This document shows, in pieces, positions 21,991 to 64,000 of a stretch of 64,000 bases of DNA. Under the pieces are notes generated by a model. The model saw only the letters and a list, made by a program, of their open reading frames with translations. It was not told where the DNA came from and made no database searches. Source of the DNA: Blasia pusilla (lineage: Eukaryota); contig CM114271.1 in assembly GCA_050084515.1 (NCBI GenBank), forward strand, positions 37,820,001 through 37,884,000, in the 5' to 3' direction. The translations under genes and the position numbers were made by a program. Every line of letters starts with the position of its first letter. Positions within the stretch are counted from its first letter, which is position 1.

Positions 21991-21992
<2 letters not shown>

Positions 21993-23710: not shown

Positions 23711-24149
23711 GTCCGGTGCGGAATCTCAGTACGCTTGGTTTTACCGCTCCCATTTTGCAGCTCGTACTTCATGTTCCGCTTGAACGTATTGATAAATTCG
23801 AAGAGATCGATGGGACTAAATCCAGATGTACACTTCTAGTTAAATCTAACTATTATAAGATTGGGCGCACTTTCCTTTTGGCTTTCCTACTGGTGTGAAT
23901 ATGACGAGAAATAATGAGTGTATGAACCCCTACGCTTAGCACCAGTTTGATGTAGGCGGTTAAACTCATTCAGATCAATAGCTCGCCTACATAGTCAATT
24001 TCCCATTCAGCTAACTACATTTTGTTTGGAATCATAGGACAACATAGTGGAAATCCATCGGATCTTCCATGGACAATTTAGGAAACCATAAATCAAGTCG
24101 TTAAACTCCAATAGATTTCCTTACGGTATTTCGGTCCATGTTGCTCAAC

Positions 24150-24890
24150 TGTGTGGCAACCCGTCAGAGACCGACGGGTTGACACAAGACAACTTTGTAG
24201 TCGCTTTCTTGGATGATATGTGTGTTTTGAAACATGTTAGAAGCCGACGGGTTGCAAGGTGGTATTTAAAATTAGAAATTGAAGCCTCATATGCAAACCG
24301 TCGGTCTTCGATGGGTTGCATAAGGTGAAACATTTCTAAGAAGGAGACTCATTTTCAAAAAAAATGCAACCCGTCGGATACTGACTGGTTGCAGACACAT
24401 TTGTGTTAGCAAAATTAGTGGAATATAATTCTATATTTCCGCATTCTAGGCCTCCTTGCAACCCGTCGCACTCCAACAGGTTGCCAGATCGACTCCGAAA
24501 TTGACTCCGGTTGACAGCAATGTGGAGCCTGTCAAACTCTAACAGGGTACGAGATCAAAAGGTTCAACGAATTAACAGCAACCCGTCAGAGTCTGACAAG
24601 TTTCAAGAAGGCCATGGATGCCGAAAATAAACCATGATATTCCTCCATTCATGTCCAACGGCTATCGATTTGCAACCCGTCGGAGTCCGAAGGGTTGCAA
24701 CATTGCTGCCATCTGCCAACAGTTGTGCAACTTTTCGGAATCCTGTGGAGGCAAAAACTACATTGAACCTTTCTTAGGGGCTTTCTCTTGGATACCGTCG
24801 CAGCCCGTCGGAGTCCGATGGGTTGCACTCAGTCGGCACACGATCTTGTTTGTTATCTTGTGTGCAACGTGACGGAAACCGAAGGATTAC
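24150..24890. repeat. Cluster of ~10 degenerate 29-bp palindromes (intron of the ParB-like gene, copy 1)
   Basis: e.g. tgcaacccgtcggatactgactggttgca (24365), tgcaacccgtcggagtccgaagggttgca (24671), gcagcccgtcggagtccgatgggttgca (24800). Confidence 0.85.
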
Positions 24891-24929
24891 ATTGCAGAAT
24901 AATTCTCACTTTGTCTTGATGATTTGCAG

Positions 24930-25590
24930 GATTGTCTCGGAGGGGAACTGGATGCATCATTGGATCCAAGATTGCGATAGAGTCAAGAAGGTGCTTACAA
25001 CACACCCGGCGGAATACAAAGGATTCTTGGGGAAAGACTTAGTGGATGAGATGCTCGCGAAGGGTGCGCAGATCAAGAAGAAGACTTGGGCGGATACATA
25101 CATCACCCAAGAGGCAGCCGTCACGATTCTGTGCTGGTCAAAAATTTAGGCTTCCAAGAAAAATGCCACATAGGAGTTGGAGCGGAGGGAAATTTTTTGG
25201 CATCAAAGCGAGCAAAGTTCATTCAGACTGCTATGTCAGCAGTCACCAAGTACACTGCGAGCAAGATGCAGCGGTACATTGCCATCCTCAACCCAGATCT
25301 TTGCTAGGACTTCTACAAGGAGTTGAAGGCGATCATTAAACGCCACAGGAAGAGGGACGAAGATCTATAAGGTCGAATTGGGGAAAAGGTCTCATTAGAC
25401 CGCGTCCACAGGTTAGCACTTTCAGGAATATCCGAATTTAGGTGGATCCGACTGATGAAAATTAGTCTTGAGGGGACTCAAGCACAAAAACAGACAGCAC
25501 ATCATCCTCCGGGGGTATCAGACCCTCCCATCTCTCATTGGCTGAGAGAATGGTCTTTCTCGGACTGCGGTATGTGGAATTCTCTGTTCA
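24930..25590 (+). pseudogene. Internal exon of the ParB-like transposon gene (copy 1; upstream exons deleted)
   Basis: TTTGCAG acceptor ending 24929. Reads IVSEGNWMHHWIQDCDRVKKV...SKMQRYIAILNPDLC*DFYKELK...VSLDRVHRLALSG...HWLREW. Paralog of 58899-59560. Confidence 0.6.
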
Positions 25591-26411
25591 ATTCGGGCTT
25601 CAATTTGAACCTTCTCTGAGTTTACAATTACAAGAATTCACAGATGCTGATTGGGCAAGAAGCGTGTCTGATGGACACTCCATATATGGTTATTCATTTA
25701 CTTTGGGAAGCCCAATTACAAGTCTATAGTTACTTTATCTTCAAGAGAGGCTGAATACAAATGAGCAACCAATGTAGCATGTGAGGAGGTGTGGCTTCAT
25801 CAATTACTTGTTGAGATTGGTATTAGTAACTTAAGACCTAGAGTAATATATGCAGAAAATATTAGTAGCATCAAACTTGCTAATAACCCTATGTTTCATG
25901 CTTGTACAAAGCATGTTGAGATGCACTATCATTTTATGAGAGAGAAAATGCTTGCAAGAGAAATTGATCTTGTGTATATAGGTATAGATCAGCAAATTGC
26001 TAACGTCTTTACAAAGGCATTGTCTAGAGATAAGTTTGAGATGTTTAGAAACAATTTAGGCGTTACAGATCTCAATATGAGCTTGAGAGGAAGTATTGAA
26101 GATTGAGTTACACACGAGATCATGAGACACTTGAACTGCTATATTTGGTACTCACGCAAAGTAGGGAAGCTTGATCTTGGTTAGTCAGTGAAGTGCGCTT
26201 ATCTTAACTAAGGTTAGTCAATCATAATTATTCTAACCAGAGACTATGGTTAAGATTAGGGTTAGGGTTGCTTGTACATACCCTATATAATTGAGAAGGG
26301 GATCACCCTCCACTCATTCTCTCATTACAAAATTTTGTTCTCCACGGTGATGAGTGAATGTGAGAGCCGTTTCCCACCAGTTATGCTTCTTTAGCAATTT
26401 TTACATATTCA
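25590..26411 (+). mobile_element. Ty1/Copia 3' fragment: RNase H, polypurine tract and 3' LTR
   Basis: FTDADWA...SSREAEY...WL..LL.EIG...ENISSIKLANNPMFHACTKHVEMHYHFMRE...QIANVFTKAL. PPT ttgagaggaagtat followed by TG at 26097, LTR TATA at ~26284, tentative CA end at ~26411. Confidence 0.85.
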
Positions 26412-28700
26412 CGATGTGTATTATTTCTAGTTGATACACCGTGTATTTTTTTGCACATCTTGTCTCGATCATCACTTTATTCTTAAGTACAAACTTTCTC
26501 AAGCGATACTATGGAGACTCTCTAGTTCCTTGGTTGACTTCCTTGGATCTCCCCAAGGACTCAATGGACTCGAAGAAATATCCTTTGTTTGATCCTTGAG
26601 AGATTTTGATAGAAGGTAGAGAGTTGCTTCAGTCATCCCCAAAGTCAAGACCCTTTAAAAAGGCTTAATCTAGAATCCCAAGCCGGTCTTTTCATGATGT
26701 CCAACTTTAAGGTTTCTTTCGTATATTAAAGGTTGATTGTCCCTTGTTTGTGGTAGCACTTCTTCCAAGTTGAAGTTCTATTTGATATACTCTTCTTGAG
26801 AAAGTGGAGACCATTTCTCGCTCTCTAGGGATGTTGGAGTTGCACTCTTTATGCCATAGTGTTCTTGGATGAACACACATTGGCACTGATAGCCTTCCCT
26901 CTTCTATGTATGGATTTCATTTATGTGCTTATCATCGCAGTGTTTCTTGTTACGTCATGGATTTGAGTGACCTTTTCTTGTTGAACTTGTTCAAAGATAC
27001 AACTGTAGAGTCACGAGCAAAGCTGGAGAGCAAGAGCTAGAGCTAGAGATCCAATAGCAAAGTTGGAGCGGCCCAAGAAGACTTTCCCAAGGTGGGGGGG
27101 GGGGGGCAGGTCAGAGGGCCCTAGAAGTATATATAAGGGGAAGGGTCTCTGAGGGTGCTTGGGATCTGAGCACTACTTTAAGTAGCCACAAGGCTAATCG
27201 AGGGCACGGAATGGACCAAGGGCAAGAGAGTAAATTTCAAAGGCCCCCCTTGGATTCCAACTATGACTTAGGTACTAGGTCTCATGGTTAGGGACTCATG
27301 CAAAATCCATTAGATAGTTGGAACCGCTAAGCATGTGAGCCTCGTTTTAGGTGCCTTGAGTATCTAGAAAGTTTGTCCCAAGTCTACAAAGATCCGCCCG
27401 TATTGGGAAGTGAGGAGTTAGGACCTATTAAGCTTGATGCATGGCAAAGTTGAAAACTCGAAGAGTTGGAAGGGTGGTGGACGCAAACCAAGTCTAATGA
27501 GAGTGTATGTAGATGCAGATCAACAAAGTGAGCATGACCTACTAAATGTATGCTTCCGCAACATCTAAAATTGACGTTCAAAAGGAGTAGGTGCACGATA
27601 GAAGGGATGAACGCAGACCCAAGTACAGATTAAGGATTGAACAACCTAAAATGTATTGCAAACAAAGCGTAATCAAAATGCTCAAAGAATGCAGTTTTTG
27701 ACCCTAGTTTAGAATGACCTTGCTGACTTGGGCCCCATAGTCGTGCATGCTTCCCGCGGACTAAAAAGAAAATTTGGCCGAATCCGGGGTTATGAGTAAT
27801 CATAGCTGGTTAAAATTGGTTTTGGTAAAAAAATGGCAAGATTGGGGGTTTCGAAATGGTAAAATCGATTTGAAATCCAATTCTACTATTCCCCGCTATG
27901 AAATACCAGTTCCCATTCTTGCTTCGGTCCACAATGAATATGCTCAAAAATTCAAAATTGTGTTATTTCACAAAATTGAGCTTTTAATAATGTAAAAATA
28001 TTTTTAATTTCAATACTAACTAGTATGCGTCCGTTATAGGAAAAGGAAGGCATGATAAAGGGGCTCATGGAGGGAATAAATGAAATATATGGGGGAGTTT
28101 TGGTAAGAATGGGAAGGGGGCTGGTATTTTGGCAGGAGAGAGTAAGAGAGGAGAGGAAGAGAGAAAGAGAGGAGAGTCTCTCTTAAAAAAAAAGGGAGAG
28201 TCCGCCTCCTCTCTTCTAAAATTTCATTAGTTTCTTTATAAGTTTTTCTCTTTGAAATGCTAAAAAACTTTAGAAGAGAGTAACAAGTGGACTAGATTGG
28301 GTCATAAACTAACTTCGTGTTTCCAGGCTTCAATCCTAAACTAGACACACCAAGACCAAGTAAGCCGTGGTCTATATATACTACTTACATCACTCTATAT
28401 GCTAGCCAAGACTTTCACTACTAATAGATGGGATTTATTTTCTCCTAGGACATTCTTGGAGATTGATAAACAGGATAGCAAATTTGGTGAGTTTATTAGA
28501 AAGTGATGGGTTCGAATATTTCCAACTATGACTTAGACTTCTCTGAGGCCACGAATCAGTCGTCTATGTTGGCTGAGCAATGGGTATATGGAGTGTCTAT
28601 GATGGTGATGGATGTTTGGAAAGTTTAGGGCTTAGCGTTTAAACACATCAGTCTGAGGTAAAGAAAGCGACCCTTAAGGCCTACATGGAAGGACTACGAG
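26412..28700. repeat. Nested unclassified retroelement/LTR-like repeats
   Basis: 26416-27180 is homologous to inverted 6110-7400. 27925-28112 is homologous to inverted 22850-22990 and 47965-48150. GA-rich tract at 28135-28200. No coding motif recognised. Confidence 0.45.
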
Positions 28701-28724
28701 GAAAATAAAGGCAATCAACCTTTC

Positions 28725-29375
28725 ATCATGTCGGAATCCGACAGGTTGGTAGAAAAGCTAGTGATGAAACAAGTGGAGAGAATGAAATGAAGGTAAGGCA
28801 TCATCCTTCCATGCAACTGGTCGGAATCTGACAGGTTTAGATGCTGATTGCTTCCATTTTACTCTAAGTCCTTCCTTGTAGATCTCTGTCCTCTCTTCAT
28901 GCAACTTGTCGGATTCCGACAGGTTGCATGATAGATGAAGTTTGAATCTAAGAAGAACAACAGGAATGAAGCCTCCCAACCTGAGGCATGCCAACCTGTT
29001 AGAATGCAATAAGTTTCAGAAAATAACACTTGAGTGAGGAATGGTTTGAAGGAAATGGGGAACAAGGCGAGGGTCCACAAGCCAGCCAAAATGCTTGAAA
29101 GGATTGTGGTGGCATGGGAAAAGAAAAGTCAGTCAAGTAGACAACCTATCCAAATCCAACCGGATGGAGGACGTTAAATTGGGAAAATGCAGCAGCCAAT
29201 CAATTTGACGTGCAACCTGTCTGAATCCGACAGGTTTCCTGAATGGATCATAGAGAAAGAGGTTTTAAAAAAATATGAGCGTCCCGGAAGCAATAAATCC
29301 TACAACTTGTCGGAATCCAATAGGTTGCAAGCATGGTCTTTGGTTTGCAACCCAGTTTAATCCGACGGGTTGCTC
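28725..29375. repeat. Palindrome cluster in the 3' flank of the MTase-like exon
   Basis: ~7 copies, mostly the CCTG/CAGG variant, e.g. gcaacttgtcggattccgacaggttgc (28901). Confidence 0.75.
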
Positions 29376-29536
29376 AATGAAGACCGTTCAACATAGAGGA
29401 ATCGCAACCGAGATACACAAGCACCACTACTTAGAAGACACATCAAGAACGTTAATATCCTTAAAAAAAATGGAAGTCCTTTATTATATCCTAGGGAAAC
29501 TCGGAAATTTACATTTGTTCACATAATCCAACAACT

Positions 29537-30472
29537 CTAGTCTATGATTTCCTCAGCCTTGTCATCTACAAATTTACTCCTAACTCTCCTCGGCTCCTGT
29601 ACAAGAGGAATGTCTTGGGATACTAGTGGCTCATCTCGTCGATTGTAGATGGGGATTGAGAATGTAGGAGAAGTTGATGGCCTTGCCTCCCCCCCTAGGT
29701 ACACCATATCGGTCCCATGTGTGATTTTAAGAGTCCCAAAGCCTTCCCCGTAAAAAAATCTTGTATGCTCCGCAAGGTGACATCCATCCACTATCAATAT
29801 GTACTTCGTCACTTGAAACCACCACATCCCTACTCCAAAACACTTGAATCAATTGAACCCGATAAATCCAGTCAACTCACTCATCATCTTCGGAGAGCTC
29901 CTCCAAAACGATTGCCGGCCTTGCCCTGCCGATTTTTGGAATGACAAGAAGGGAAGATGGCGTCACTACCAATGGGTCTCTCTGGTTGGAGCGATTGCCT
30001 TTGGAGGCGAGTTGTAGACTCCCACAAGCCTTTCGTAATCCACCTTTGCCTCCTTGCAAAGGTCGAAAAGTTTCGTTCTTCCTTCAATGGAGAGAATGTT
30101 TCTGCCACTCTACCATGCACCTCTGATACTCGCCCCTGATAAACCAACCAAGTCCAAGACCAAATCACATGGCCTCGAGCATAGCTCAATGAGGGTCTGC
30201 ATCAGGGCAGGTGACTTATCCCTTCCTCCAAGTAAAGGCGTGCCTTCAATCATAAAGAGTCCTGGGGGATTTGTAAAGGTTATCCAATGTGATCCAATCC
30301 AAGCATGGATCGACGGGATTGGATATCTGAAACACCTAAAACATGTGCTCTGGTCTCACAAAACAGTAGACATAGGAGTGCTCCATCTGTCCACAAGGCA
30401 AGAGCAAAAAATGGTTAGCTTTAAGGTGGAACAAGCCTACACGTCGGAAATTCTCGCTTGCTCTACAACTTC
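29537..30472 (-). pseudogene. Terminal exon encoding an N4-cytosine/N6-adenine DNA methyltransferase-like SAM-binding region (not in ORF track)
   Basis: Manual minus-strand translation after TTTAG acceptor at 30473: ...WITFTNPPGLFMIEGTPLLGGRDKSPALMQTLIELCSRPCDLVLDLVGLSGASIRGAW*SGRNILSIEGRTKLFDLC. Core at 30083-30230, stop at 30110-30112. Resembles the K-P-x-L..LI...S..GD.VLD.F.GSG.T..AA...GR..IG.E pattern of beta-class amino-MTases. Acidic tail RSKFVDDKAEEIID* ends at 29537. Confidence 0.7.
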
Positions 30473-30479
30473 CTAAACA

Positions 30480-30945
30480 TTTGTGCAAAATTATTCGGAT
30501 CCCCATGGGTTGCTCATAAACAAAAAGAGATTTTGTCTAGCTCTACAATTAAATCAATATGCCTAGTGCAACATTCATTTTCGAATCCCGAAGGGTTGCA
30601 CAAAATTGGTTTTTTCCTTATCCAAGCATCTACTTTAGAAGCAACCCGTGAGAGCCCGACGGGTTGCTCATAAACAAAGTAAGATTTCTTGAAACTATAT
30701 ACTTTCATCAAAAAATTTGCAACCCATCGGTCTCCACGGGTTGCCTATAATTTTCTTTTTCCTTATCCAAATATCTAGTTGAGAAGCAATTTTTGAATTC
30801 CAACGGGTTGCTCATATCAACGTCATAAGTCTATGAGCAACCCCGTGTTTCGATGGGTTTCTCATCATGGGGAAACGGTTGCACTAAATGTCTTCATTAA
30901 TTATAAATCGATTCCTACAACCCGTCGGGATTGACGGGTTGCATA
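30480..30945. repeat. Palindrome cluster in the intron preceding the MTase-like exon
   Basis: e.g. gcaacccgtgagagcccgacgggttgc (30641), acaacccgtcgggattgacgggttgca (30917). Candidate minus-strand GT donors at 30956 and 30952. Confidence 0.75.
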
Positions 30946-34265: not shown

Positions 34266-35190
34266 CTAGGCGCTGTCCTTGATATATCCTTCGACTGCCT
34301 TGAACAAATTTGTGACTGCTCCCTTCGCTTGTTCGACGACGCCAGGAATGGCGTTTTCTGAGCCGCCCTCGTACTCGGTGGTGACGTGCACCTTGCACTT
34401 GTCATCGCCGACCGCGATGATGGTCATACTGGTAACCCACTTGGTGAAGCCCACGCCCTCACTGAGATGTCCTCCCTCGATCTCTTGGGTGGTGATTTTA
34501 GCATCACCTTCGAGGTCCAGGCCGATGAGCTTCTCCTTGACGAACGCGCCGGCGGGCGCCACTGGAAAATGTAAACGGAGTTGGTGTGAGAGACCATCAT
34601 GAATTTCAGGTGGCCATGGCTACTTGTACTAAGTCGATCACGGATACATCCTACATTTGAACGTTGAGTTTTGAAATTGACTGACTCATTCTATCGACCT
34701 GAATGAGTTTAACCGCATGCGTCAAACTGGAGCTAAGCGCAGGGGTCGATACATTCATTGTTTCCGGTGATATTCACACCAGGAAGGCCAGTAGGAAAGC
34801 GCGCCGAATCTTATTATAGCTAGATTTAACTAGAACTGTACATCTGGAATCGGTTCCATCGATCTCTTCGAATTCATCAATACGTTCAAGCCAAAGTTGA
34901 AGTACGAGCTGCGAAATGGGACCGGTAAAACCGAGCGTACTCACATGCCTTCGGTAATCAAATGCAACAATGTAGAGCCAACAAACATCTCACTGGGATA
35001 CAGCATGTGTGAGCTTACCGAAGTTGATGATTCGCACCGAGCCTACGTGTCCTTCCACACCCTCGATTTCCTCCATGGTGCTAATGACCTCTGGTAAGAG
35101 CTTGGGGAACAGCGTGTTTTGCTCCTTCAAAGCTCCCCACAGGGCGCTCACAGGCACGGCCAACTCGACAGCAGACTCGAAGGAACCCAT
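34266..35190 (-). CDS. Bet v 1/PR-10-like protein, pair 3 minus gene; exons 35190-35019 and 34561-34266, 155 aa
   Basis: GTAAG donor at 35018, TTTTCCAG acceptor at 34562, open spliced frame ending LFKAVEGYIKDSA*. Confidence 0.9.
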
Positions 35191-35355
35191 TTCCGGTCCA
35201 GTACTGAATCTCGGTACTGATGCGATAGACTCTGGAGACGAAACTCTCGAGATGAAGATGTAGGTACGGGATGCAAGAGCAAATCGAGTGATGGCGAAAT
35301 TGTGAGAGAGTACTGGTTAGCGATGAAGCTTGCGAACTGAGATCGCGCGCGCTCC

Positions 35356-36107: not shown

Positions 36108-36250
36108 GAGCCTCGCGCACTCTCAGTTCGCAGGCCTTCATCGCTAACCAGTAAAGTCTCGCAATCAATCGATCTGCTCTTGCATCCAACTTTAGATCTC
36201 CGTCTAGATCATTTAGTCCATTCCATCAGGGTCGAGATTCAGCACCGGAA

Positions 36251-52454: not shown

Positions 52455-53090
52455 CCCGACGGACTCCGACGGGTTGGACGATGAAAAAGTTTCAGGAAAA
52501 ATTGCAACCCGTCGGATTGCTATGTGTTGCATGGTGAACTATTTTCAGAACAAAGCAACAACTTGTCGAATTCCAACGGGTTTCATGATGAAATTTTTCC
52601 AAAAAAATATTACAACCCGTCGGATTCCGACGGGTTGCATGATGAACTTTTTTGAGAACAAAATAGCAACTTGTCGCATTTAGACGGGTAACATGATGAA
52701 CATTTTCCAGAAAAAATTGCAACCCGTCGGAATCCGACGGGTTGCATGTATAACTTTCTACAGAAAAATATTGCGACCCGTCGGCTTCCGACGGGTTGCA
52801 AGATGAACTTTTTTCTGAAAAATATTCCAACCCATCAGATTCGACGGGTTGCATGATGAACTTTTTCCATAAAAATATTGCAACCCTTTGACTTTCGATA
52901 CATTGCATGACATAATTTTTTCATAAAAAAATCGCAAGCCGTCAAAATCCGACGGGTTGGAAGCCCGCAGATTCGGACGGTTTGCAAGCCGTTGGATTCA
53001 AACTTCCCGCAATGTGATGGAACTTGTCAGTTCCGACGAGTTTCTTTACCTACGTAATTTGAGCCCCATACAATTTCGACGGCTTGCAAC
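52455..53090. repeat. Palindrome minisatellite, 53-54-bp period, in the transposase intron
   Basis: Palindrome starts at ~52503, 52557, 52611, 52665, 52718 (perfect, 52718-52746), 52772, 52826, 52879 and 52933. Spacers are related (tgatgaactttttccagaaaaatat). Confidence 0.9.
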
Positions 53091-53134: not shown

Positions 53135-55111
53135 CTGCCGTATAAAGTTTCCCCATTGCCTCATACGGACGGTCCACCAACTGAGCCACGAACACAACTC
53201 TTTATATTTTCCGTCAATCGCATGCTTTCTCCATCACACATGAAGTTTGTCTTGGCACTCCATGGCTTGTTTCAAGGTTTTGCTATCCCTGCAACGTTGA
53301 AGTAGAGCTATATGCTCTCTTCTCTTATTCTCCTTGATGTAGGATTTTGTGTAGCGAGTCACAGACTGTTGCCAATGGAAAGCATCTAATATTTCCCTTT
53401 CCGGTTGAACTCCTTCCCCCCAGAACACTTCTCGGATTGCAATCCATCCCGGTTGGGCATTTTCTGCCATGAAGCCATATATTTCAGGAGGAGATCTTTT
53501 GTTTTCGTTCACCACCTCCAGCAAGAGTAACCAACACATCTTCAAGCTGCCAACATCTTCCGCTTTCACCTCACAAACAAAAATGGTTTTGAGACCCTTC
53601 TCCACATGGTCATAAACATGTGCATCCATGGTCAACCATCCATTTAATACCTTGTAGCAAATATCAAAGCTAACCCACCTCCCAAATAGATCTTCTCCCT
53701 CCTTGATTCTGTCAATAAGATTGAGGCCGCTAGACGGGCCTGTAGTAGACAATTTGAAGACATAAGCTCTAGATCCCTCGCCTCCTTGGCCCATGAATTG
53801 CCATCTCTGGATGAATGGAAATCGTGAGTTGGCCTTGATCCTAGAAATGGCATCCATCTCCGCGGTCTTTCCATCAAGTATTTGTATTTGACGCAATAAG
53901 TTCCTGAAGCTTTCTGGATCACCCAAGAATGCCAGGTTTTCCCATAGTTGCTTCTCCTCAGCTTCTGTGATATCCCCTTCGCCATGGATACCCAAAAATT
54001 GTTCACAAATTTGTGATAAAGTTGTCAATTTGATCACTCTCGCTTTGATCCTGGAGAATTTTTGTATACCTCGGCCACTTTCTTTGCTACATCCTTCTTG
54101 ATGTATCTCTGAATTGCACCCGTGACAAGATGAGTGTGACACCCAACATGAATTGCCACTCTTGTGTACTTGGACCTTGAACTATAGTTGTGCACTTTGA
54201 AATAAGTAAGCCGGACACGCTCTAACACAGAAAGGGGAGGCTTGACAATGCGGACAACGATGGCCACCGATAGGATGGTCGTACCCACAGCGTAGGGAGT
54301 TTTTGTATTTTTGGGAGGAAATTGGGAAGTATTCACGACTCTGTTTCTCTCGAGGAAGGGGCACCCTGGGCTTCTGCACTCTAAGGCTCCAATAAATTGG
54401 CAACAAGACACAATCCAAGGACCACTAGGGATTGAAGCGCTCATCCGCTACAGTCTGCACCATCGGCGACATTCCGATTTTCGGTCCATTCCCTTCAAGC
54501 GGCCTCCATCTTTCTTTTGAGCAGGATCCACAAGTGGAGGCAGCTCAAAAATGTTGTTCCATCATACGTTGCTGGCAGCTCATCCACGATTATGTGCTTG
54601 ATCAGTTTCAAGGGAAGAGAAGAAAGCAACAAATTCCTCGAAACTCCAAGCAGGAAAAAGTAAGCGGACGTGTTTCCAACAGATCCTGTGAGATCGATGA
54701 CATCCTGGATATCCATAGTCTTAATTGTGGTGTTTCGAGCTTGTGAAAATGGAGTCAATGCAAGATCAGCCGAAGCACCCATGCCAAACATGGAGCATGG
54801 AGCACTCGAAGGTTTTGGACCGTCTTCATGAGTCGTAGTGGTGATCAGGGGTAGGCATTGGAGTAGGGTAAGAGGGTCCACACTCTGTAGCTTCCAATTT
54901 CCGGTTGGACTGTTTCCCTAATGACATCATCCGTTCCATCAACCTTGACATCCTTGGATACAAATATGGTTCCAATCAAGAGAAGAAATAGGAGTGAAAG
55001 GAAATGTTCTTCAACAATTACATGAATGTCATCAGGCTGGGCTCGAATACTCTCCGATTGAGGAAGGCCCGCTAGATGACTGCTACATGTAAGCTTCACA
55101 TAATTGTCCAT
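53135..55111 (-). mobile_element. Mutator/MULE-type DDE transposase with N-terminal GCM/WRKY-fold-like Zn domain, degraded
   Basis: Joined frames read VDELPATYDG/IFELPP...GMDRKSECRRW...IGALECRSPGCPF...N...VAIHVGCHTH (GCM-like). MULE core WVSFDICYKVLNGWLTMDAHVYD...TIFVCEVKAE...GFMAENAQPGWIAIREVF...DAFHWQQS. Reading through the TGA at 53234-53236 gives WRKHAIDGKYKELCSWLSWWTVRMRQWGNFIRQ, then a GTGAGT donor at 53134. Third catalytic residue not found. Confidence 0.75.
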
Positions 55112-55315: not shown

Positions 55316-56163
55316 TCGACCCGTAGGAGACGGACGGGTTGGAAGGTAGACACTAGGGGAACTTCAACCCGTTGGAGTCCGACGGATTGGAAACGAGGAG
55401 GGATGTCGATGGAACAAACCCTGAACACTAAACGCATCTCGACGTCTAGAATTTTGTCATAATCTATGGGAAAGATGTGGCAGGGGTCCTTCAACCCGTC
55501 GGAGTCCGATGGATTATAAAATGGACAGACTCTGAACACCGGTCCGTCCGGTCCTGCTACCCGCTTACCTAACGGATTCCCCCACCTTCCACAAGTTAGG
55601 CAGCCTGGGTTCCGTGCAACTCGTTGGAGTCCAACGGGTTACACGACCCAGGTTAAATGGACCCCATGCCACCCGCCAAAGTCTGACGGGTTGCACGGGA
55701 CCCTTTCTAGATGGACCCTATGCAACCCGTTATGGTCCAACGGGTTGCAGGAGGTGAGCAAGATGAATTCTCCCCGTGCAACCCGTCGGAGTCCGACGGG
55801 TTGCACGAGAGCCAATTTGGATGGACCCTATGCAACCCGTTGTGGTCCAACGGGTTGCAGGAGGTAGGCAGGATGAATTCTCCCTGTGCAACCCGTCGGA
55901 GTCCGACGGGTTGCACAGGAGCCAGGGTGGATGGACCCTATGCAACCCGTCATGGTCCGACGGGTTGCTAGAACTAGGCAAGATGAATGCTCCCCATGCA
56001 ACCTGTCAGAGTCCGATGGGTTGCACTAGAGCTAGGCTGGATGGACCCTATGCAACCCATCGTGGTCCGACGGGTTGCACGGTGACCTCCTATTCAACCT
56101 GTTGGAGTCCGAAGGGTTGCACAGTGACCTCCTATTCAACCTGTCGGAGTCCGATAGGTTGCA
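55316..56163. repeat. Palindrome array between the two divergent transposon genes, including a 110-bp A/B higher-order repeat
   Basis: A-type copies at 55721, 55831, 55941 and 56051 (preceded by gatggacccta). B-type at 55777, 55887 and 55997 (preceded by gatgaattctccc). 55777-55805 and 55887-55915 are perfect 14+1+14 palindromes. Confidence 0.9.
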
Positions 56164-56490
56164 TAGTTCCCATGTGCCATGCACCGTATACGCAAGATGT
56201 CATCGTCGGACCAACGGTTCCCAAAACCTAATGGTCAGCTCAATGACTAAAAATCTATATAAGGCTTTGATGATGATCATTTCTCTTTCCTTTCCATTGC
56301 ATTTTCAGTAAAAGCGTTTTGAGCAAACACGTGGGTTACTCCGGAAACCGCTTCGCTCGAAGGTACCACCGCTACGATTGACGAAGATTCGAGGGATGAC
56401 GCTTTGAGGGATGACGCTTCGAAGATTGACAGTGAAATTGATTGCTTTACTATAAGCGAAGTGTAGAGCTTTACTTCTTTCACGACCACA

Positions 56491-59400
56491 ATGACGAGGA
56501 AGAAAACTCTAGCATCGAAGGTTGGGAGTGTAACTCCAAAGTCCATCAGAACGCCTGTACCGCCTTCTCTTGGCCCTTGCTCGGTGGTGGACATAAGGCA
56601 ACAAGAGATAGAGGACCGGGAGAGGGAAGCTGAAATGCGCAGGCAAGAGCTAGAGGCTAAGCTTGCGCTGGAGGAACTTGCAAAGCGGAATGCCGAGGTG
56701 GAGGCATCAAAGGCAATGAAAAAAAGGATTGCGGACAAGAAGAGAGAGAAGAAACGTCTCGATGCATCTATTAGGAGGGAAGAATTGGCATAAGCACGGA
56801 GGGAGAAGGCTATCACCGTGGAGGAAGATAGCCTTGTCGGACCTACGGACAACGTTGAGATGGAGGATGCATCCCCGTTGAGGTCGGGCAAAACCCTAAA
56901 CTTGAAAACGTCTGAAGAGCTTGAAGATGCTCAAGAGAAGGAAGAGGAGTCAATGAAGACACCAAGTGTGGAGATGGTGGACATCTCTAAGGAAGCGGGA
57001 GAAGAGTCCTCGTCTTCATTGAGCCGGGTGGAAGAATTTGAGTTCTTCCGCATGGATGAGTTTCCTATGGAGTTGCCTCCTCTTGTCTCAGAGCAGTTGG
57101 CCGGCCTTGACACTTATCCAATTTTTGAGAGGGTAAGGAGTCTTCGACATAACTTACTAAGCTTTGATGATCACTTCGAAAGAAAATTACAACCTATTAA
57201 CCATCACGAAAATTTTTCAGGTTGTAAAGTAGATGGCGGTGGTGGATGGCCACAAGTCCCCCCGAATTCTTCTTTGTCGACTTTGGACCATGGAGTACGT
57301 CCGGGAAATTCAGTCGGACGAGGACATTGCAAAGTTGAAGTATTCAGTTGCCATAACATCTTACTTCGATAGCTTCCTGCCATTCTTCGTGCAGCCTTAT
57401 GATGAACATGGAACACAGTCTCTCGTGACAGAAGAAGACCTGGAGAACATGGACACGTTCTAGAGAATAAGAGACACGAAGTTCATAAGAGTTGTCAGAG
57501 GAACTGAATTCAGGTGGATAATGAACCTAAATTTCTTCATTTGGGATGGAAACCACAGGTTCAGGGCATGGTTCCAATTTTCCGAGGAGCGCCCAAATTT
57601 ATTAGAGGCGCATTTTTGTGTGAGGGCAGTCGTCCTCCATCCCTTTCTGCATCATATGGCCACGGTGTAGATGGTGATGCACTCAATGAATACGTAAGTG
57701 TTTCTTTTTCTCTCTTAGAATTGTTTGCTTGCTGCAACCCGTCGGAGTCCAATGAGTTGCCCAATTCAGCTTACTAGAGTTTGCAATTAATTGTTGGTTA
57801 GAGAGGAAACCAATCGCAACTTGCATGGGCAATTTGGGACACAATACAGCAACCCGTCGGAGTTCGACGGGTTGCCCCATTCAGCTAACTACATTTTATT
57901 TGGAATCATAGGACAACATAATGGAAATCCATCGTATCTTCCATGGACAATTTAGGAAACCATAAAGCAAGTCGTTAAACTCCAATAGGTTTCCTTACGG
58001 TATTTCGGTCCATGTTGCTCAACCGTGTGGCAATCCGTCGGAGACCGACAGGTTGACACAAGACAACTTCGTAGTCGCTTTCTTGGATGATATGTGTGTT
58101 TTGAAACATGTTAGAAGCCGACGGGTTGCAGGGTGGTATTTAAAATTAGAAATTGAAGCCTTATATGCAAATCGTCGGTCTCCGATGGGTTGCATAAGGT
58201 GAAACATTTCTAAGAAGGAGACTCATTTTCAAAAAAAATGCAACCGGTCGGATGCTGACTGGTTACAGACACATTTGTGTTAGCTAAATTAGTGGAATAT
58301 CATTCTATATTTTCCGCATCCTAGGCCTCCTTGCAACCCATCGGATACTGACTGGTTGCAGACACATTTGTGATAGCTAAATTAATGGAATATCATTCTA
58401 TATTTTCGGCATCCTAGGCCTCCTTGCAACCCGTCGGACTCCAACAGGTTGCGAGATCGACTCTGAAATTGACTCCGGTTGACAGCAATGTGGAGCCCAT
58501 CAAACTCTGACAGGTTACGAGATCAAAAGGTTCAACGAATTAACAGCAACCCGTCGGAGTCTGACAAGTTTCAAGAAGGTCATGGATGCCAAAAATAAAC
58601 CATGATATTCCTCCATTCATGTCCAACGGCTATCGATATTGCAACCCGTCGGAGTCTGAAGGGTTGCAAGATTGCTGCCATTTGCTAATAGTTGTGCAAC
58701 TTTTCGAGATCCTGTGGAGGCACAAACTACATTGAACCTTTCTTAGGGCCTTTCTCTTGGATACCGTCGCAGCCCGTTAGAGTCCGACGGGTTGCAATCA
58801 GTCGGCACACGATCTTGTTTGTCATCTTGTGTGCAACGTGACGGAAACTGACGGATTACATTGCAGAATAATTCTCAGTTTGTCTTGACGATTTGCAGGA
58901 TTGTCTCGGAGGGGAACTTGATGCATCATTGGATCCAAAATTGCGATAGGGTCAAGAAGGTGCTTACAACACACCCGACGGAATACAAAGGATTCTTGGG
59001 GCAAGACTTAGTGGATGAGATGCTCGCGAAGGGTACGCAGATCAAGAAGAAGACTTGGGCGGATAGATACATATCCCAAGAGGGAACCGTCATGATTCTG
59101 TGCTGGTCAAAAATTTAGGCTTCCAAGAAAAATGCCACATAGGAGTTGGAGCGGAGGGAAATGTTTTGGCATCGAAGCGAGCAAAGTTCATTCAGACTGC
59201 TATGTCAGCAGTCACCAAGTACACTGCGAGCAAGATGCAGCGGTACATTGGCATCCTCAACCCAGATCTTTGCTAGGACTTCTACAAGGAGTTGAAGGCG
59301 ATCATTAATCGCCAGAGGAAGAGGGACAAAGATCTACAAGGTTGAATTGGGGAAAATGTCTCATTAGACCGCATCCATAGGTTAGAACTTTCAGGAATAT

Positions 59401-59560
59401 CCGAATTTAGGTGGATCCGACTGATGAAAATCAGTCTTGAGGGGACTCAAGCACAAAAACATGTAGCACATCATCCTCCGGGGGTTTCAGACCCTCCTAT
59501 CTCTCATTGGCTGAGAGAATAGTCTTTCTCGGACTGCGGTATGTGGAATTCTCTGTTCAA
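56491..59560 (+). pseudogene. Spliced gene: coiled-coil/acidic N-terminus plus ParB/Srx-like domain; exons ~56491-57132, 57221-57693 and 58899-~59560
   Basis: Phase-consistent introns 57133-57220 (GTAAGG..TTTTTCAG) and 57694-58898 (GTAAGT..TTTGCAG). Reads RILLCRLWTMEYVREIQSDEDIAKLK...FFVQ...FFIWDGNHRFRAW (DGNHR at 57545-57559)...MHSMNT-IVSEGNLMHHWIQ. Several TAG/TAA stops. Truncated by Copia. Confidence 0.7.
57733..58860. repeat. Palindrome cluster (~14 copies) filling the large intron of the ParB-like gene
   Basis: e.g. gcaacccgtcggagttcgacgggttgc (57849-57875). A 93-bp palindrome+spacer unit is duplicated at 58239 and 58332. Confidence 0.85.
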
Positions 59561-60400
59561 TTCGGGCTTCAATTTGAACCTTCTCCGAGTTTACAATTAC
59601 AAGAATTCACAGATGCTGATTGGGCAAGAAGCGTGTCTGATGGACACTCCATATGTGGTTATTCATTTACTTTGGGAAGCCCAATTATAAGCTGGGCTTC
59701 AAAGAAGCAACCTATAGTTGCTTTATCTTCAAGAGAGGCTGAATACAAATGAGCAACCAATGCAGCATGTGAGGCGGTGTGGCTTTATCAATTACTTATT
59801 GAGATTGGTATTAGTAACTTAAGACCTAGTGTAATATATGGAGAAAATATTAGTAGCATCAAACTTGCTAATAACCCTATGTTTCATGCTTGTACAAAGC
59901 ATGTTGAGATGCACTATCATTTTATGAGAGAGAAAATGCTTGCAAGAGAAATTGATCTTGTGTATGTAGGTATAGATCAGCAAATTGCTTACGTCTTTAC
60001 AAAGGCATTGTCTAGAGATAAGTTTGAGATGTTTAGAAACAATTTAGGCGTTACAGATCTTGATATGAGCTTGAGAGGGAGTATTGAAGATTGAGTTACA
60101 CACAAGATCATGAGATATTTGAACTGCTATATTTGGTACTCATGCAAAGTAGGGAAGCTTAATCTTGGTTAGTCAGTGAAGTGCGCTTATCTTAACTAAG
60201 GTTAGTCAATCACAATTAGTCTAACCATAGACTATGGTTAAGATTAGGGTTAGGGTTGCTTGTACATACCCTATATAATTGAGAAGGGGATCACCCTCCA
60301 CTCATTCTCTCATTGCAAAATTTAATTCTCCACGGTGGTGAGTGAGTGTGAGAGCCGTTTCCCAGCAGTTATGCTTCTTGAGCAATTTTCTACATATTCA
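59560..60400 (+). mobile_element. Ty1/Copia RNase H, PPT and 3' LTR (duplicate of 25590-26411)
   Basis: FTDADWARSVSDGHSICGYSFTLGSPIISWASKKQPIVALSSREAEYK, TKHVEMHYHF, PPT gagagggagtat followed by TG at 60085. Confidence 0.85.
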
Positions 60401-62640
60401 CGATGTGTATTGTTTCTAGTTGATACACCGTGTATTTTTTTGCACATCTTGTCTCGATCATCACTTTATTCTTAAGTACAAACTTTCTCAAGCGATACTA
60501 TGGAGACTCTATAGTTTCTTGGTTGACTTCCTTGGATCTCCCCAAGGACTCAATGGACCCGAAGAAATATCCTTTGTTTGATCCTTGTGAGATTTCTGTA
60601 GAGAGTCAATTAAGTCATCCCCAAAGTCAAGACCCTTTAAAAAGGCTTAATTTAGAATCCCAAGCCGGTCTTTTCATGATGTCCAACTTTAAGGTTTCTT
60701 TTGTATATTAAAGGTTGATTGTCCCTTGTTTGTGGTAGCACTTCGTCCAAGTTGAAGTTCTATTTGATATGCTCTTCTTGAGAAAGAGGAGACCATTTCT
60801 TGCTCTCTAGGGGTGTTGGAGTTGCACTCTTTATGCCATAGTGTTCTTGGATGGACACACATTGGCACTGATAGCCTTCCCTCTTCTATGTATGGATTTC
60901 ATTTATGTGCTTATCATCGCAGTGTTTCTTATTACGTCATGGATTTGAGTGACCTTTTCTTGTTCAATACAACTATAGAGTCAGGAGAAAAGCTAGAGAG
61001 CAAGAGCTAGAGCTAGAGATCCAATAGCAAAGTTGGAGCGGCCCAAGAAGACTTTCCCAAGGGGGGGGGCAGGTCAGAGGGCCCTAGAAGTATATATAAG
61101 GGGATCTGAGCTCTACTTTGAGTAGCCACAAGGCTAATCGAGGGCACGGAATGGACCAAGGGCAAGAGAGTAAATTTCAAAGGCCCCCCTTGGATTCCAA
61201 CTATGACTTAGTTACTGGTTCTCATGGTTAGGGACTCATGCAAAATCCATTAGACAATTGGAACGGTTAGGCTTGTGAGCCTCGTTTTAGGTGCCTTGAG
61301 TATCTAGAAAGTTTGTCCCAAGTCTAGAAAGATCCGCCCGTATTGGGAAGTGAAGAGTTAGGACCTATTAAGCTTGATGCATGGCTGAGTTGAAAAATTG
61401 GAAGGCTGGTGGACTCAAACCAAGTCTAATTTGAGAGTGTGTTTAGATGCAAATCAACAAAGTGAGCATGACCTTCTAAATATATGCTTCCGCAACATCT
61501 AAAATTGACGTTCAAAAGGAGTAGGTGCACGATAGAGGGGATGATAGCAGACCCAAGTACAGATTAAGGATTGAACAATCTAAAATGTATTGCAAACAAA
61601 GCGTAATCAAAATGCTCAAAGAATGCAGTTTTTGACCCTAGTTTAGAATGACCTTGCTGACTTGGGCCCCATAGTCGTGTATGCTTCCCGCGGACTAAAA
61701 AGAAAATTTGGCTGAATCTGGGGTTATGAGTAATCATAGTTGGTTAAAATTGGTTTTGGTAAAACAATGGCAAGATTGGGAGTTCCAAAATGGTAAAATG
61801 AATTTGAAATCCAATTTTACTATTCCACGCTATGAAATACCAGTTCCCATTCTTGCTTCAGTCCACAACGAATATGCTCAAAAATTCAAAAATGTGTTAT
61901 TTTACAAAATTGAGCTTTTAATAATGTAAAAATATTTTTAATTTCAATACTAACTAGTATGCGTCCGTTATAGGAAAAGAAAGGCATTATAAAGGGGCTC
62001 ATGGAGGGAATAAATGAAATATATGGGGGAGTTTGGTAAGAATGGGAAGGGGGCTGGTATTTTGGCAGGAGAGAGTAAGAGAGGAGAGGAAGAGAGAAAG
62101 AGAGGAGAGTCTCTCTTAAAAAAAAAAGGGAGAGTCCGCCTCCTCTCTTCTAAAATTTCATTTGTTTCTTTATAAGTTTTTCTCTTTGAAATGCTAAAAA
62201 ACTTTAGAAGAGAGTAACAAGTGGACTAGATTGGGTCATAAACTAACCTCGTTTTTCCAGGCTTCAATCCTAAACTAGACACACCAAGACCAAGTAAGCC
62301 GTGGTCTGTATATACTACTTACATCACTCTATATGCTAGCCAAGACTTTCACTACTAATAGATGGGATTTATTTTCTCCTAGGACATTCTTGGAGATTGA
62401 CAAACACGATAGCAAATTTGGTGAGTTTATTAGAAAAGGGATGGGTTTGAATATTTCCAATTATGACTCAGACTTCTCTGAGGCCACGAATCAGTCGTCT
62501 ATGTTGGCTGAGCAATGGGTATATGGAGTGTCTATGATGGTGATGGGTGTTTGGAAAGTTTAGGGTTTAGCGTTTAAACACATCAGTCTGAGGTAAAGAA
62601 AGCGATCCTTAAGGCCTACATGGAAGGACTACGAGGAAAA
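60401..62640. repeat. Nested unclassified LTR-like repeats (duplicate of 26412-28700)
   Basis: Colinear with 26412-28700. Confidence 0.45.
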
Positions 62641-62659
62641 TAAAGGCAATCAACCTTTC

Positions 62660-63325
62660 ATCTTGTCGGAATCCGACAGGTTGGTAGACGTCAAGATTCC
62701 ATAAAATCTAATGACGAAACAAGTGGAGAGAATGAAATGAAGGTAATGCATCATCCTTCCATGCAACCTGTCGGAATCCGACAGGTTTAGATGCTGATTG
62801 CTCCCATTTTACTCTAAGTCCTTCCTTGTAGATCTGTGTCCTCTCTTCATGCAACTTGTCGGACTCTGATAGGTTGCATGATAGATGAAGTTTGAATCTA
62901 AGAAGAACAACAGGAATGAAGCCTCCCAACCTGAGGCATGCCAACCTGTGAGAATGCAATAGGTTTCAGAAAATAACGCCTGAGTGAGGAATGGTTTGAA
63001 GGAAATGGGGGAACAAGGCGAGGGTCCACAAGCCAGCCAGAATGCCTGAAAGGATTGTGGTGGCACAAGAAAAGAAAAATTAGTCAAGTAGACAACCTGT
63101 CGAGATCCAACCGGGTGGAGAACGTTAAATTGGGAAAATGCAGCAGCCAATCAATTTGACATGCAACCTGTCTGAATCCGACAGGTTTCCTGAATGGATC
63201 ATAGAGAAAGAGGTTTAAAAAAATATGAGCATCCCGTAAGCAATAAATCCCACAACTTGTCGGAATCCAATAGGTTGCAAGCATGGTCTTTGGTTTGCAA
63301 CCCTGTTTAACTCGACGGGTTGCTC
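62660..63325. repeat. Palindrome cluster (duplicate of 28725-29375)
   Basis: e.g. tgcaacctgtcggaatccgacaggttt (62762). Confidence 0.75.
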
Positions 63326-63486
63326 AATGAAGACCGTTCAACATAGAGGAATCGCAACCGAGACACACAAGTACCACTACTTAGAAGACACATCAAGAAC
63401 ATTAATATCCTTAAAAAAAATGGAAGTCCTTTATTATATCCTAGGGAAACTCGGAAATTTACATTTGTTCATAGAATCCAACAACT

Positions 63487-64000
63487 CTAGTCTATGATTT
63501 CCTTAGCCTTGTCATCTCAAATTTACTCCTAACTCTCCTTGGTTCCTGTACAAGAGGAATGTCTTGGGATACTAGTGGCTCATCTGGCCGATTGTAGATG
63601 GGGATTGAGAATGTAGGAGAAGTTGATAGCCTTGCCTCCCCCCCCTAGGTACACCATATCGGTCCCATGTGTGATTTTAAGAGTCCCAACGCCTTCCCCG
63701 TAAAAACATCTTGTATGCTCCGCAAGGTGACATCTATCCACTATCAATATGTACTTCATCACTTGAAACCACCAAATCCCTATTCCAAAACACTTGAATC
63801 AATTGAACCCGATAAATGCAGTGAACTCACTCATCATCTTCTGAGAGCTCCTCCAAAATGATTGCCGGCCTTGCCCTGCCGATTTTTGGAATGACAGGAA
63901 GGGAAGATGGCGTCACTACCAATGGGTCTACTGTTGGTTGGAGTAGTTGCCTTTTGAGGTGAGTTGTAGACTCCCACAAGCCTTTCGTAATCCACCTTTG
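63487..64000 (-). pseudogene. C-terminal tail of the MTase-like exon, copy 2 (MTase core predicted just beyond the window edge)
   Basis: Colinear with 29537-30048; the window ends ~35 nt before the GRNILSIE-equivalent position. Confidence 0.6.

What the first reader, a model, noticed from the sequence alone, without database searches (positions are those of the whole stretch)
29960..30472. Hidden bacterial-type N4C/N6A DNA methyltransferase exon missed by ORF calling
Seen: the minus frame gives GGRDKSPALMQTLIELCSRPCDLVLDLVGLSGASIRGAW*SGRNILSIEG; the ORF track shows only its antisense shadow (30054-30476 +). Known: beta-class amino-MTases end with motif X (K-P..L...LI), motif I (GD.VLDPF.GSG) and GR..IG.E. 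Eukaryotic 4mC enzymes of bacterial origin are known in only a few lineages (to my recollection bdelloid rotifers and Marchantia). Inference: a transposon-borne source of non-5mC DNA methylation in a land plant. I could not find a clean DPPY/SPPY catalytic motif, so activity and target base are undetermined.
Basis: partly seen in the sequence, partly recalled or inferred. Interest (0 to 1): 0.82.

Follow-up and report, generated by a model that had tools for sequence, protein, structure and literature searches.

The report
Decayed transposon DNA-methyltransferase gene fragment
This is a short leftover, broken by a stop codon, of the tail end of a DNA-methyltransferase-like gene that sits in a repeated, palindrome-rich mobile-element remnant; the similarity is real, but it is a dead fragment and not a hidden working gene.

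Summary
The peptide is in the sequence as described (minus strand, 29966-30355, TAG at 30110-30112). On its own it only weakly matches Pfam N6_N4_Mtase: 17.3 bits against a cut-off of 26.7.

It is nevertheless a true homologue of a eukaryotic gene family:
- A search of 1.84 billion proteins gave 3 hits.
- A family search gave 45 short proteins and one full-length protein, the 1147-aa M758_1G295400 of the moss Ceratodon purpureus. Its C-terminus passes the Pfam cut-off at 30.4 bits.
- A family HMM built without the window row hits the six-frame window once, at 30062-30259(-), with 44.0 bits. The best score in 50 shuffled windows was 2.9 bits.

Only about 66-88 codons survive, covering motifs X and I. 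They carry a nonsense codon, and nothing of the catalytic half is found in the window. A second relic, of the family's N-terminal domain, lies at 57164-57691(+) with three stops.

Both relics sit in repeat blocks studded with a 25-nt palindrome: 28 copies against 0 expected.

Proteins of about 1100 aa that join a ParB-like domain to an N4C/N6A methyltransferase are already described as transposon accessory genes in algae (PMC12477816).

Verdict: the homology is real, but the locus is a pseudogene relic. It is a new member of a known kind and of modest interest.

The parts
30062..30325 (-). Relic of the C-terminal (AdoMet-binding) part of an N6_N4 methyltransferase-like domain. The family HMM match covers 30062-30259. 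Weaker likeness ('RYPIP...ITFTN') extends to about 30325.
   Evidence: Family HMM 44.0 bits. tblastn with P0047 aa 1057-1118 gives E 2e-8 and 39% identity. phmmer hits aligned from query residue 25. Pfam PF01555 17.3 bits.
30182..30220 (-). Motif X-like helix, DKSPALMQTLIEL.
   Evidence: Aligns to QKSLALMEKIISI of DpnA and to HEKSDVFFQTLID of P0047. Coordinates were counted.
30128..30166 (-). Degenerate motif I, DLVLDLVGLSGAS. The canonical form is D.VLDPF.GSG and the family form is VVDLSASTGAS.
30110..30112 (-). In-frame TAG nonsense codon inside the domain. It sits at a column where relatives have Ala, and there is no gap.
29966..30109 (-). Continuation of the frame after the TAG. SGRNILSIEGRTKLF is still homologous, down to 30062. 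The tail down to the TAG at 29966-29968 has no family likeness.
30039..30476 (+). 145-aa antisense ORF (the 'shadow'), with no family match.
57164..57691 (+). Relic of the same family's N-terminal domain (P0047 aa 202-382). It includes the shared WDGNHR at 57542-57559 and three in-frame stops at 57230, 57461 and 57668.
   Evidence: tblastn E 8e-13, 28% identity over 184 columns..
56794..57372 (+). Acidic 192-aa ORF in another frame, just upstream of and overlapping the N-terminal relic. It is possibly the decayed acidic N-terminus of the same gene (inference).
   Evidence: No Pfam family above noise.
24002..30048 (.). Repeat block A. A second copy, block B, lies at 57876-64000 and is cut by the window end 14 nt short of the MTase relic. 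Identity over aligned bases is 95.7%, and CpG obs/exp is 0.58 and 0.54.
57876..64000 (.). Repeat block B, the copy of block A.
55615..56167 (.). Tandem array, period 54/110 nt, of the palindrome TGCAACCCGTCGGA-N-TCCGACGGGTTGCA.
52455..52963 (.). Second tandem array, period 54/107 nt, of the same palindrome.
30642..30941 (.). Three degenerate copies of the palindrome just upstream, on the minus strand, of the MTase relic. Further copies lie at 24157-24825, 28902-29372, 57735-57874, 58031-58794 and 62764-63322.
53234..54181 (-). 315-aa open frame between the two palindrome arrays. It is a possible MULE-type transposase remnant, but this is a lead only.
   Evidence: Atlas feature search: best clusters carry PF10551 MULE, scores 0.94-0.91. 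Pfam found nothing even at E<=5, and the fold model was too poor to use.

Best explanation
Window 30062-30325(-) is a pseudogene relic, about 66-88 codons long, of the last part of a multi-copy eukaryotic gene family. The family's full-length form is Ceratodon purpureus M758_1G295400 (1147 aa). That protein has a long N-terminal region with a conserved 'WDGNHR' domain, which I read as ParB-like from recall, not from a test. Its C-terminus is a permuted (beta-class) N6_N4 DNA-amino-methyltransferase-like domain.

At this locus only motif X, motif I and the following strand remain. They are interrupted by a TAG and have lost family-conserved residues. The catalytic half is gone, so the locus makes no enzyme.

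Shown: the homology, the breakage, the repeat context, and the second relic of the N-terminal domain.

Inferred: the gene is, or was, an accessory gene of a large DNA transposon. Its intact product would bind the element's own 25-29-nt palindromes through the N-terminal domain and methylate, or merely bind, nearby DNA through the C-terminal domain. This is what has been proposed for the ParB-like/methyltransferase accessory proteins of algal transposons.
For: Homology:
- phmmer found 3 hits among 1.84e9 proteins.
- The family search found 45 proteins at E<=0.01 among 4070 candidates. 3 of them were query rows. 38 came from ENA, 5 from Logan and 2 from JGI. 8 of the 45 carry a precomputed PF01555.
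- The 'longer' search found 1 of 8000 scored candidates, P0047. P0047 scores 30.4 bits on PF01555 over aa 903-1119, profile 2-217 of 221, above the 26.7 cut-off. It also hits PHROG DNA methyltransferase families.
- The family HMM gives 44.0 bits at 30062-30259(-) and nowhere else in the six frames. The best of 50 shuffles was 2.9 bits.

Decay:
- The TAG sits at an aligned column, His is replaced by Asn in 'GRH', and the upstream frame is closed.
- tblastn with P0047 finds only aa 1057-1118 here and aa 202-382 at 57164-57691(+) with 3 stops. Nothing matches aa 383-1056.

Mobile context:
- The relic ends a 6-kb block that is present twice.
- 28 copies of the palindrome against 0.00 expected in 100 shuffles. 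All lie in 24.1-30.7 kb and 52.4-62.8 kb, flanking both relics.
- Relatives sit on many different long contigs.

Precedent:
- Red-algal PAG2 and PAG3 lie next to arrays of inverted repeats (bioRxiv 10.1101/2025.02.11.637652, sections 8 and 21 read).
Against: - Neither element termini (TIR) nor target-site duplications were found, so 'transposon' rests on repetition and context.
- The transposase assignment of ORF 53234-54181 is only a language-model lead. Pfam found nothing.
- The ParB-like nature of the N-terminal domain was not confirmed. There was no Pfam or NCBIfam hit and no ParB structure by profile search. In the 15 rows listed out of 100 phage records, tblastn matches lie only in aa 895-1134. 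The Atlas pointed instead to fungal DUF3723, score 0.95, a lead only.
- The two relics in the window are on opposite strands and are not one gene.
- Block B is cut at the window end, so it is not shown that the second copy also holds the MTase relic.
- Family motif I (SASTGAS) and motif IV (DTPF in P0047) depart from the canonical forms, so even intact members may not methylate.
Confidence: 0.82

Rival explanations
1. It is a functional exon of an active, unannotated N4C/N6A DNA methyltransferase gene.
For: The motif order X, then I, then GR..G.E is correct and homology is significant. A full-length relative with a motif IV-like DTPF exists in a moss.
Against: There is an in-frame TAG at an ungapped family column and conserved residues are lost. 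A stop lies directly upstream at 30356-30358. No match to the catalytic half or any other part of the gene was found on this strand nearby. No Pfam domain was found in 28 neighbouring ORFs apart from noise. The relic lies in a duplicated, CpG-depleted repeat block.
Confidence: 0.03
2. It is a chance resemblance to methyltransferase motifs in non-coding repeat DNA.
For: The Pfam score is below the cut-off, at 17.3 against 26.7 bits. E 0.005 refers to a single protein, not to six frames of 64 kb. PDB hits are E 0.15 or worse.
Against: The family HMM without the window row gives 44.0 bits, against a maximum of 2.9 bits in 50 shuffled windows. There are 3 hits at E<=2.4e-4 in 1.84e9 proteins. A second, independent relic of the same protein's N-terminal domain lies in the same window at E 8e-13.
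Confidence: 0.02
3. It is a relic of the same family, but the family is a host multigene family or a remnant of a viral or bacterial insertion, not a transposon accessory gene. On this reading the palindromes belong to an unrelated repeat that happens to surround it.
For: No TIR or TSD was found. The transposase is not confirmed. The only named member is annotated simply as a hypothetical protein. The C-terminal domain's nearest named relatives are phage adenine methyltransferases.
Against: No relative was found in IMG/VR viral contigs or in one genome per prokaryote species by pattern scan plus tblastn. This is weak evidence, because the scans use short exact patterns. Many diverged copies lie on separate long contigs. 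Both relics in this window are flanked by the same palindrome arrays. The same architecture is published as transposon cargo in three algal lineages.
Confidence: 0.13

Closest known systems
Ceratodon purpureus hypothetical protein M758_1G295400 (P0047, 1147 aa) and its 44 unnamed short relatives
   Same: Direct homologue. Window 30065-30250 aligns to aa 1057-1118 at 39% identity, and window 57164-57691 aligns to aa 202-382 at 28% identity. The degenerate motif I pattern D-L-x-x-x-x-G-A-S is shared.
   Different: The window copies are fragments with stops. P0047 is an open 1147-aa model with a motif IV-like DTPF at 908-911.
[quoted passage not shown]
   Same: Similar size, with an N-terminal DNA-binding-type domain and a C-terminal N4C/N6A methyltransferase domain. 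It is carried in a giant DNA transposon and is proposed to bind and mark its own element (passages read).
   Different: No sequence of it was available here, so homology is untested. The ParB-like nature of the moss and window N-domain was not confirmed. The element here is not a recognised Sola1.
Red-algal Plavaka accessory genes PAG2 (PF01555 + SET) and PAG3 (ParB-like + 2OG oxygenase), Bostrychia/Chondrus
   Same: A PF01555 domain and a ParB-like domain occur as transposon cargo, with tandem arrays of inverted repeats next to the ParB-like gene. Here, tandem arrays of a palindrome lie next to the relics.
   Different: There the two domains are on separate proteins with other partner domains. 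Here they are, in P0047, on one protein without a SET or 2OG domain.
Bacterial and phage beta-class (permuted) amino-methyltransferases: DpnA, M.RsrI, CcrM, YhdJ, phage adenine MTases
   Same: Same domain and motif order (IV ... X, I). P0047 aligns over the whole domain with a Solobacterium phage adenine MTase, 22% identity over 229 columns, with DTPF opposite that enzyme's DIPY. The relic aligns to DpnA residues 171-227.
   Different: Those are small, stand-alone prokaryotic enzymes with a canonical FxGxG loop. The eukaryotic family has about 900 extra N-terminal residues and an S-A-S-T-G loop.
Marchantia MpDN4MT1a/b and the bdelloid rotifer N4CMT (eukaryotic 4mC enzymes of bacterial origin)
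   Same: An N6_N4-type domain recruited into a eukaryote.
   Different: MpDN4MT1 has TSPPY and no extra domains. N4CMT has a C-terminal chromodomain. Both are single or tandem host genes with shown activity. The family here has DTPF, a long N-terminal region and many decayed copies, and no activity is known. No sequence comparison was possible.

Membership tests
Pfam PF01555 N6_N4_Mtase (beta-class amino-methyltransferase domain) | Profile score at or above the curated cut-off (26.7 bits) | tested here: not met
   The window peptide scores 17.3 bits, covering only profile 166-219 of 221. The full-length relative P0047 does meet it, with 30.4 bits over profile 2-217. P0004 scores 26.5 and P0002 22.0.
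Pfam PF01555 N6_N4_Mtase | Catalytic motif IV, (D/S/N)PP(Y/F/W), N-terminal to motifs X and I (motif wording recalled) | tested here: not met
   It is absent from the window. There is no match to P0047 aa 903-1056. NPPG at 30271 aligns to the family's LTLTN, not to motif IV. In P0047 the position reads DTPF, opposite DIPY of a phage MTase.
Pfam PF01555 N6_N4_Mtase | Motif X helix followed by motif I (D.F.GSG) and the GR..G.E strand, in this permuted order | tested here: met
   The order and spacing match DpnA 171-227 and the profile end. However, the glycine loop is degenerate (VGLSGAS) and is followed by a TAG.
Moss-type long MTase-like family (P0047 and relatives) | Significant match to a family profile built without the query | tested here: met
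   44.0 bits, i-E 4.7e-15, a single hit in the six frames. Shuffle maximum 2.9 bits.
Moss-type long MTase-like family | Open, complete coding sequence | tested here: not met
   There is one stop in the C-terminal relic and three in the N-terminal relic. The middle 670 residues are missing, and the pieces are on opposite strands 27 kb apart.
ParB-like/methyltransferase transposon accessory proteins (algal type) | N-terminal ParB-like DNA-binding domain | tested here: inconclusive
   WDGNHR is shared by P0047 and the window relic, and it resembles the ParB/Srx DGxHR motif (recalled). There was no Pfam, NCBIfam or PDB-profile support. The Atlas lead was DUF3723. The AF2 model has low confidence there.
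ParB-like/methyltransferase transposon accessory proteins (algal type) | Carried inside a DNA transposon with defined termini and a transposase | tested here: inconclusive
   The repeat block is present twice and contains palindrome arrays. No TIR was found. The MULE assignment is only a lead.
Marchantia DN4MT1-type 4mC methyltransferases | TSPPY catalytic motif; no additional domains | tested here: not met
   The paper states TSPPY and no extra domains. P0047 has DTPF and a 900-aa N-terminal extension. The window lacks the region.
Any active DNA methyltransferase | Methyl transfer to DNA, and the target base | not testable with these tools
The domain has switched between 6mA and 4mC repeatedly (PMC8885841, section 10 passage).

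The most novel reading that the evidence does not exclude
Bryophyte-type genomes harbour a so far undescribed family of large DNA transposons. Their accessory protein of about 1150 aa would bind the element's own 25-29-nt palindrome arrays through a ParB-like domain and deposit 6mA or 4mC on the element through a variant (DTPF) beta-class methyltransferase domain. That would be a transposon self-marking system in land plants, and this window would hold decayed copies of it.
Probability: 0.2. Interest if true: 0.65.

Novelty: new member of a known kind. Interest (0 to 1): 0.3.

Why it matters
The locus itself has no function. It is a pseudogene fragment and should not be counted as a plant 4mC/6mA enzyme.

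Its value is as a pointer. It links this genome to a gene family with one annotated full-length moss member and dozens of unnamed copies. That family has the same architecture as the ParB-like/methyltransferase accessory proteins recently noted in brown, red and green algal giant transposons.

If intact, active members exist in bryophytes, the proposed 'transposon that binds and marks its own DNA' idea would extend to land plants. The 25-nt palindrome would then be a concrete candidate binding site to test.

My searches of the held library found no paper that joins ParB-like, DNA methyltransferase, transposon and bryophytes or N6_N4_Mtase and moss in this sense. Supplements of the two algal papers were not read and might mention land-plant homologues.

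Tried and rejected
- The whole genome is not held, so no paralogue search was possible.
- The direct 'longer' word search with the lone peptide found nothing.
- Locus retrieval for relatives failed in every collection tried: JGI metagenomes with the family alignment and with P0046, IMG/VR and prokaryote genomes. No DNA context of relatives could therefore be studied, and only one full-length member is known.
- 28 ORFs around the relic had no meaningful Pfam family.
- The AF2 model of P0047 with a 29-row alignment had mean pLDDT 44.2. Only about 1060-1130 was confident, with a helix-strand-helix-strand-helix pattern, so no fold search was run on it.
- The AF2 model of ORF 53234-54181 had pLDDT 39.6 and was unusable. 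Its PDB sequence search gave only a chance-level hit.
- The profile of the N-terminal domain against PDB gave no ParB.
- Short-word BLAST for terminal inverted repeats around 30050-31200 found none.
- NPPG at 30271 was rejected as a motif IV candidate.
- A weak tblastn piece at 59412-59474(-), E 3.1, was judged to be chance because it is out of order.
- No complex-prediction job was run.

Full report
**Observation.**
The only long ORF listed over the site is the antisense 30039-30476(+), 145 aa, which has no Pfam family.

**Is it more than chance?**
Scanned alone, with X at the stop, the 130-residue read-through gives Pfam PF01555 N6_N4_Mtase at E 0.005 and 17.3 bits. That is under the curated 26.7 bits, but the match lies at the expected end of the profile, 166-219 of 221. 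NCBIfam gives a DNA methyltransferase subfamily at E 0.076. The best solved structures are DpnA at E 0.15 and M.RsrI at E 1.4, aligned over motif X, motif I and the following strand. For a motif picked from six frames of 64 kb this would not be convincing by itself.

A search without a word index against 1,835,955,588 representative proteins found 3 proteins at E<=0.001: P0002, P0003 and P0004, at 36-42% identity. Each has a sub- or near-threshold PF01555 match at the same profile end, scoring 22.0, 13.6 and 26.5 bits.

A profile of these found 45 proteins at E<=0.01 among 4070 candidates. 3 were rows of the query. 38 came from ENA, 5 from Logan and 2 from JGI. Most are about 147 aa, on different contigs of up to 1.18 Mb, and 8 of the 45 have a precomputed PF01555.

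An HMM of 27 members, with the window's own row removed, hits the window's six-frame translation once, at 30062-30259(-), with 44.0 bits and i-E 4.7e-15. In 50 block-shuffled windows the best domain score was 2.9 bits. The homology is therefore real.

**What the family is.**
The search among longer proteins returned one protein out of 8000 scored candidates: P0047, 1147 aa, named by NCBI 'hypothetical protein M758_1G295400 [Ceratodon purpureus]', a moss.
- Its residues 903-1119 match PF01555 over profile 2-217 of 221 with 30.4 bits, above the cut-off.
- PHROGs gives four DNA methyltransferase families.
- NCBIfam gives weak adenine-methyltransferase hits to YhdJ and CcrM.
- tblastn finds 100 phage records at E<=0.1. 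In the 15 rows listed, all matches lie in aa 895-1134 under genes annotated as adenine or DNA methyltransferases, apart from one unannotated record and one hypothetical protein.

Aligned over the whole domain with a Solobacterium phage adenine methyltransferase (22% identity over 229 columns), P0047's 'IIIDTPF' lies opposite that enzyme's 'VIADIPY'. The moss protein therefore has a motif IV-like D-T-P-F at 908-911. Its motif I reads VVDLSASTGAS where the phage enzyme has VIDPCAGSGST.

About 900 residues precede the domain. They include a conserved stretch with 'WDGNHR' at 333.

**What is left in the window.**
tblastn of P0047 against the window gives two significant pieces:
- aa 1057-1118 at 30065-30250(-), E 2e-8, 39% identity;
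- aa 202-382 at 57164-57691(+), E 8e-13, 28% identity over 184 columns.

The second piece has three in-frame stops, at 57230, 57461 and 57668, and keeps WDGNHR at 57542-57559. Nothing matches aa 383-1056. This gap includes the whole catalytic half of the methyltransferase domain.

In the C-terminal relic:
- the TAG stands at an ungapped alignment column;
- the family-invariant His of 'GRH' is Asn;
- the frame is closed just upstream, at 30356-30358.

'NPPG' at 30271 might tempt a reading as NPPY, but it aligns with the family's conserved 'LTLTN' segment about 17 residues before motif X, so it is not motif IV.

The site is therefore a pseudogene fragment, not an exon that ORF calling overlooked.

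**Context.**
The relic ends a block, 24002-30048, that recurs at 57876-64000. Identity over aligned bases is 95.7%, with 172 transitions and 88 transversions. CpG obs/exp is 0.58 and 0.54, against 0.73 for the whole window. The second copy is cut by the window end 14 nt before the homologous stretch, so whether it also carries the relic is unknown.

A 25-nt palindrome, CAACCCGTCGGA-N-TCCGACGGGTTG, occurs 28 times at up to 3 mismatches. 100 dinucleotide-preserving shuffles gave a mean of 0.00. All copies lie in 24.1-30.7 kb and 52.4-62.8 kb. Two tandem arrays with a 54-nt period lie at 52455-52963 and 55615-56167. Copies flank both relics.

Between the arrays lies a 315-aa open frame, 53234-54181(-). 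Its nearest Atlas clusters carry PF10551 MULE, with scores of 0.94-0.91. Pfam finds nothing even at E<=5, and the single-sequence fold was unusable, so the MULE assignment is only a lead. No terminal inverted repeats were found.

**Comparison with what is known.**
- Walker et al., bioRxiv 10.1101/2021.02.12.428880, passages read. MpDN4MT1a/b carry TSPPY.
- PMC8885841, passages read. N4CMT has a chromodomain, and MpDN4MT1 has no extra domains.

The family here differs from both in motif IV, in size and in copy number.

A closer precedent is the 1104-aa accessory protein of the Ectocarpus Sola1-1_Ec32 transposon. [quoted passage not shown]

In red algae, PAG2 (PF01555 + SET) and PAG3 (ParB-like + 2OG oxygenase) travel in Plavaka, Mutator, Zisupton and Fanzor elements, with tandem arrays of inverted repeats next to PAG3 (bioRxiv 10.1101/2025.02.11.637652, sections 8 and 21 read). 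ParB-HTH-fused adenine methyltransferases of chlorophytes and chytrids were noted earlier (PMC4738411, passages read).

The size, the domain order and the neighbouring palindrome arrays make the moss and window family look like this kind.

I could not confirm that the N-terminal domain is ParB-like. The likeness of WDGNHR to the ParB/Srx DGxHR motif is recalled. Pfam, NCBIfam and a PDB profile search gave nothing. The Atlas lead was to fungal DUF3723, score 0.95, which the search listing shows discussed in papers on fungal Starship elements (listing only). No algal sequence was available for a direct comparison.

**Mechanism.**
At this locus there is none, because it is a dead relic.

For intact members I infer, at roughly even odds, that the protein recognises the element's palindromes through the N-terminal domain and methylates adenine, or less likely cytosine N4, nearby. 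Asp at the first motif IV position and the adenine-methyltransferase neighbours lean towards 6mA. The domain is known to switch specificity, and the S-A-S-T-G loop may weaken AdoMet binding, so a DNA-binding pseudo-enzyme is a live alternative.

**Novelty and verdict.**
- The kind is already in print for algae. I found no paper in the held library that joins it to bryophytes. I did not read the supplements of the algal papers.
- I rate it a new member of a known kind, with interest 0.3.
- The organism of the window could not be determined. 'Land plant' rests only on the moss relative.

Noticed in passing
window 24157-30941 and 52452-63322: A 25-29-nt perfect palindrome, (TG)CAACCCGTCGGA-N-TCCGACGGGTTG(CA), occurs in 28 copies at up to 3 mismatches, against 0 expected. 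Two 54-nt-period tandem arrays lie at 52455-52963 and 55615-56167. It is a candidate protein-binding site of the element.
   Followed up: partly
window 53234-54181 (-): A 315-aa open frame lies between the palindrome arrays. The Atlas points to MULE transposases (0.94), but Pfam gives no hit even at E<=5 and the fold model is unusable.
   Followed up: partly
window 57164-57691 (+), with 56794-57372 (+): A second relic of the same protein family (the N-terminal domain with WDGNHR) lies on the opposite strand, 27 kb from the finding. It has three stops and is preceded by an acidic ORF in another frame.
   Followed up: yes
window 15461-23524 and 40571-48694: A segment of about 8 kb is duplicated 25.1 kb apart at 92-98% identity. 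It carries long open frames (for example 17340-18059 and 42411-43160; 19247-19747 and 44353-44853). Two of these, 17340-18059 and 19247-19747, were scanned and have no Pfam family.
   Followed up: no
window 266-2420, 9831-11984, 34969-37232 (and 49694-49993): Another repeat family is present three to four times at 96-100% identity, in the GC-richer parts of the window.
   Followed up: no
window 5385-5873 (-): A reverse-transcriptase fragment (Pfam RVT_1, 34.5 bits), with a further open frame at 4887-5384(-). It is probably a retroelement remnant.
   Followed up: no
P0047 aa 195-420: The Atlas feature search places the N-terminal domain nearest to fungal DUF3723 clusters, score 0.95. DUF3723 appears in papers on Starship giant transposons (search listing only). 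This hints at a wider eukaryotic mobile-element domain.
   Followed up: no
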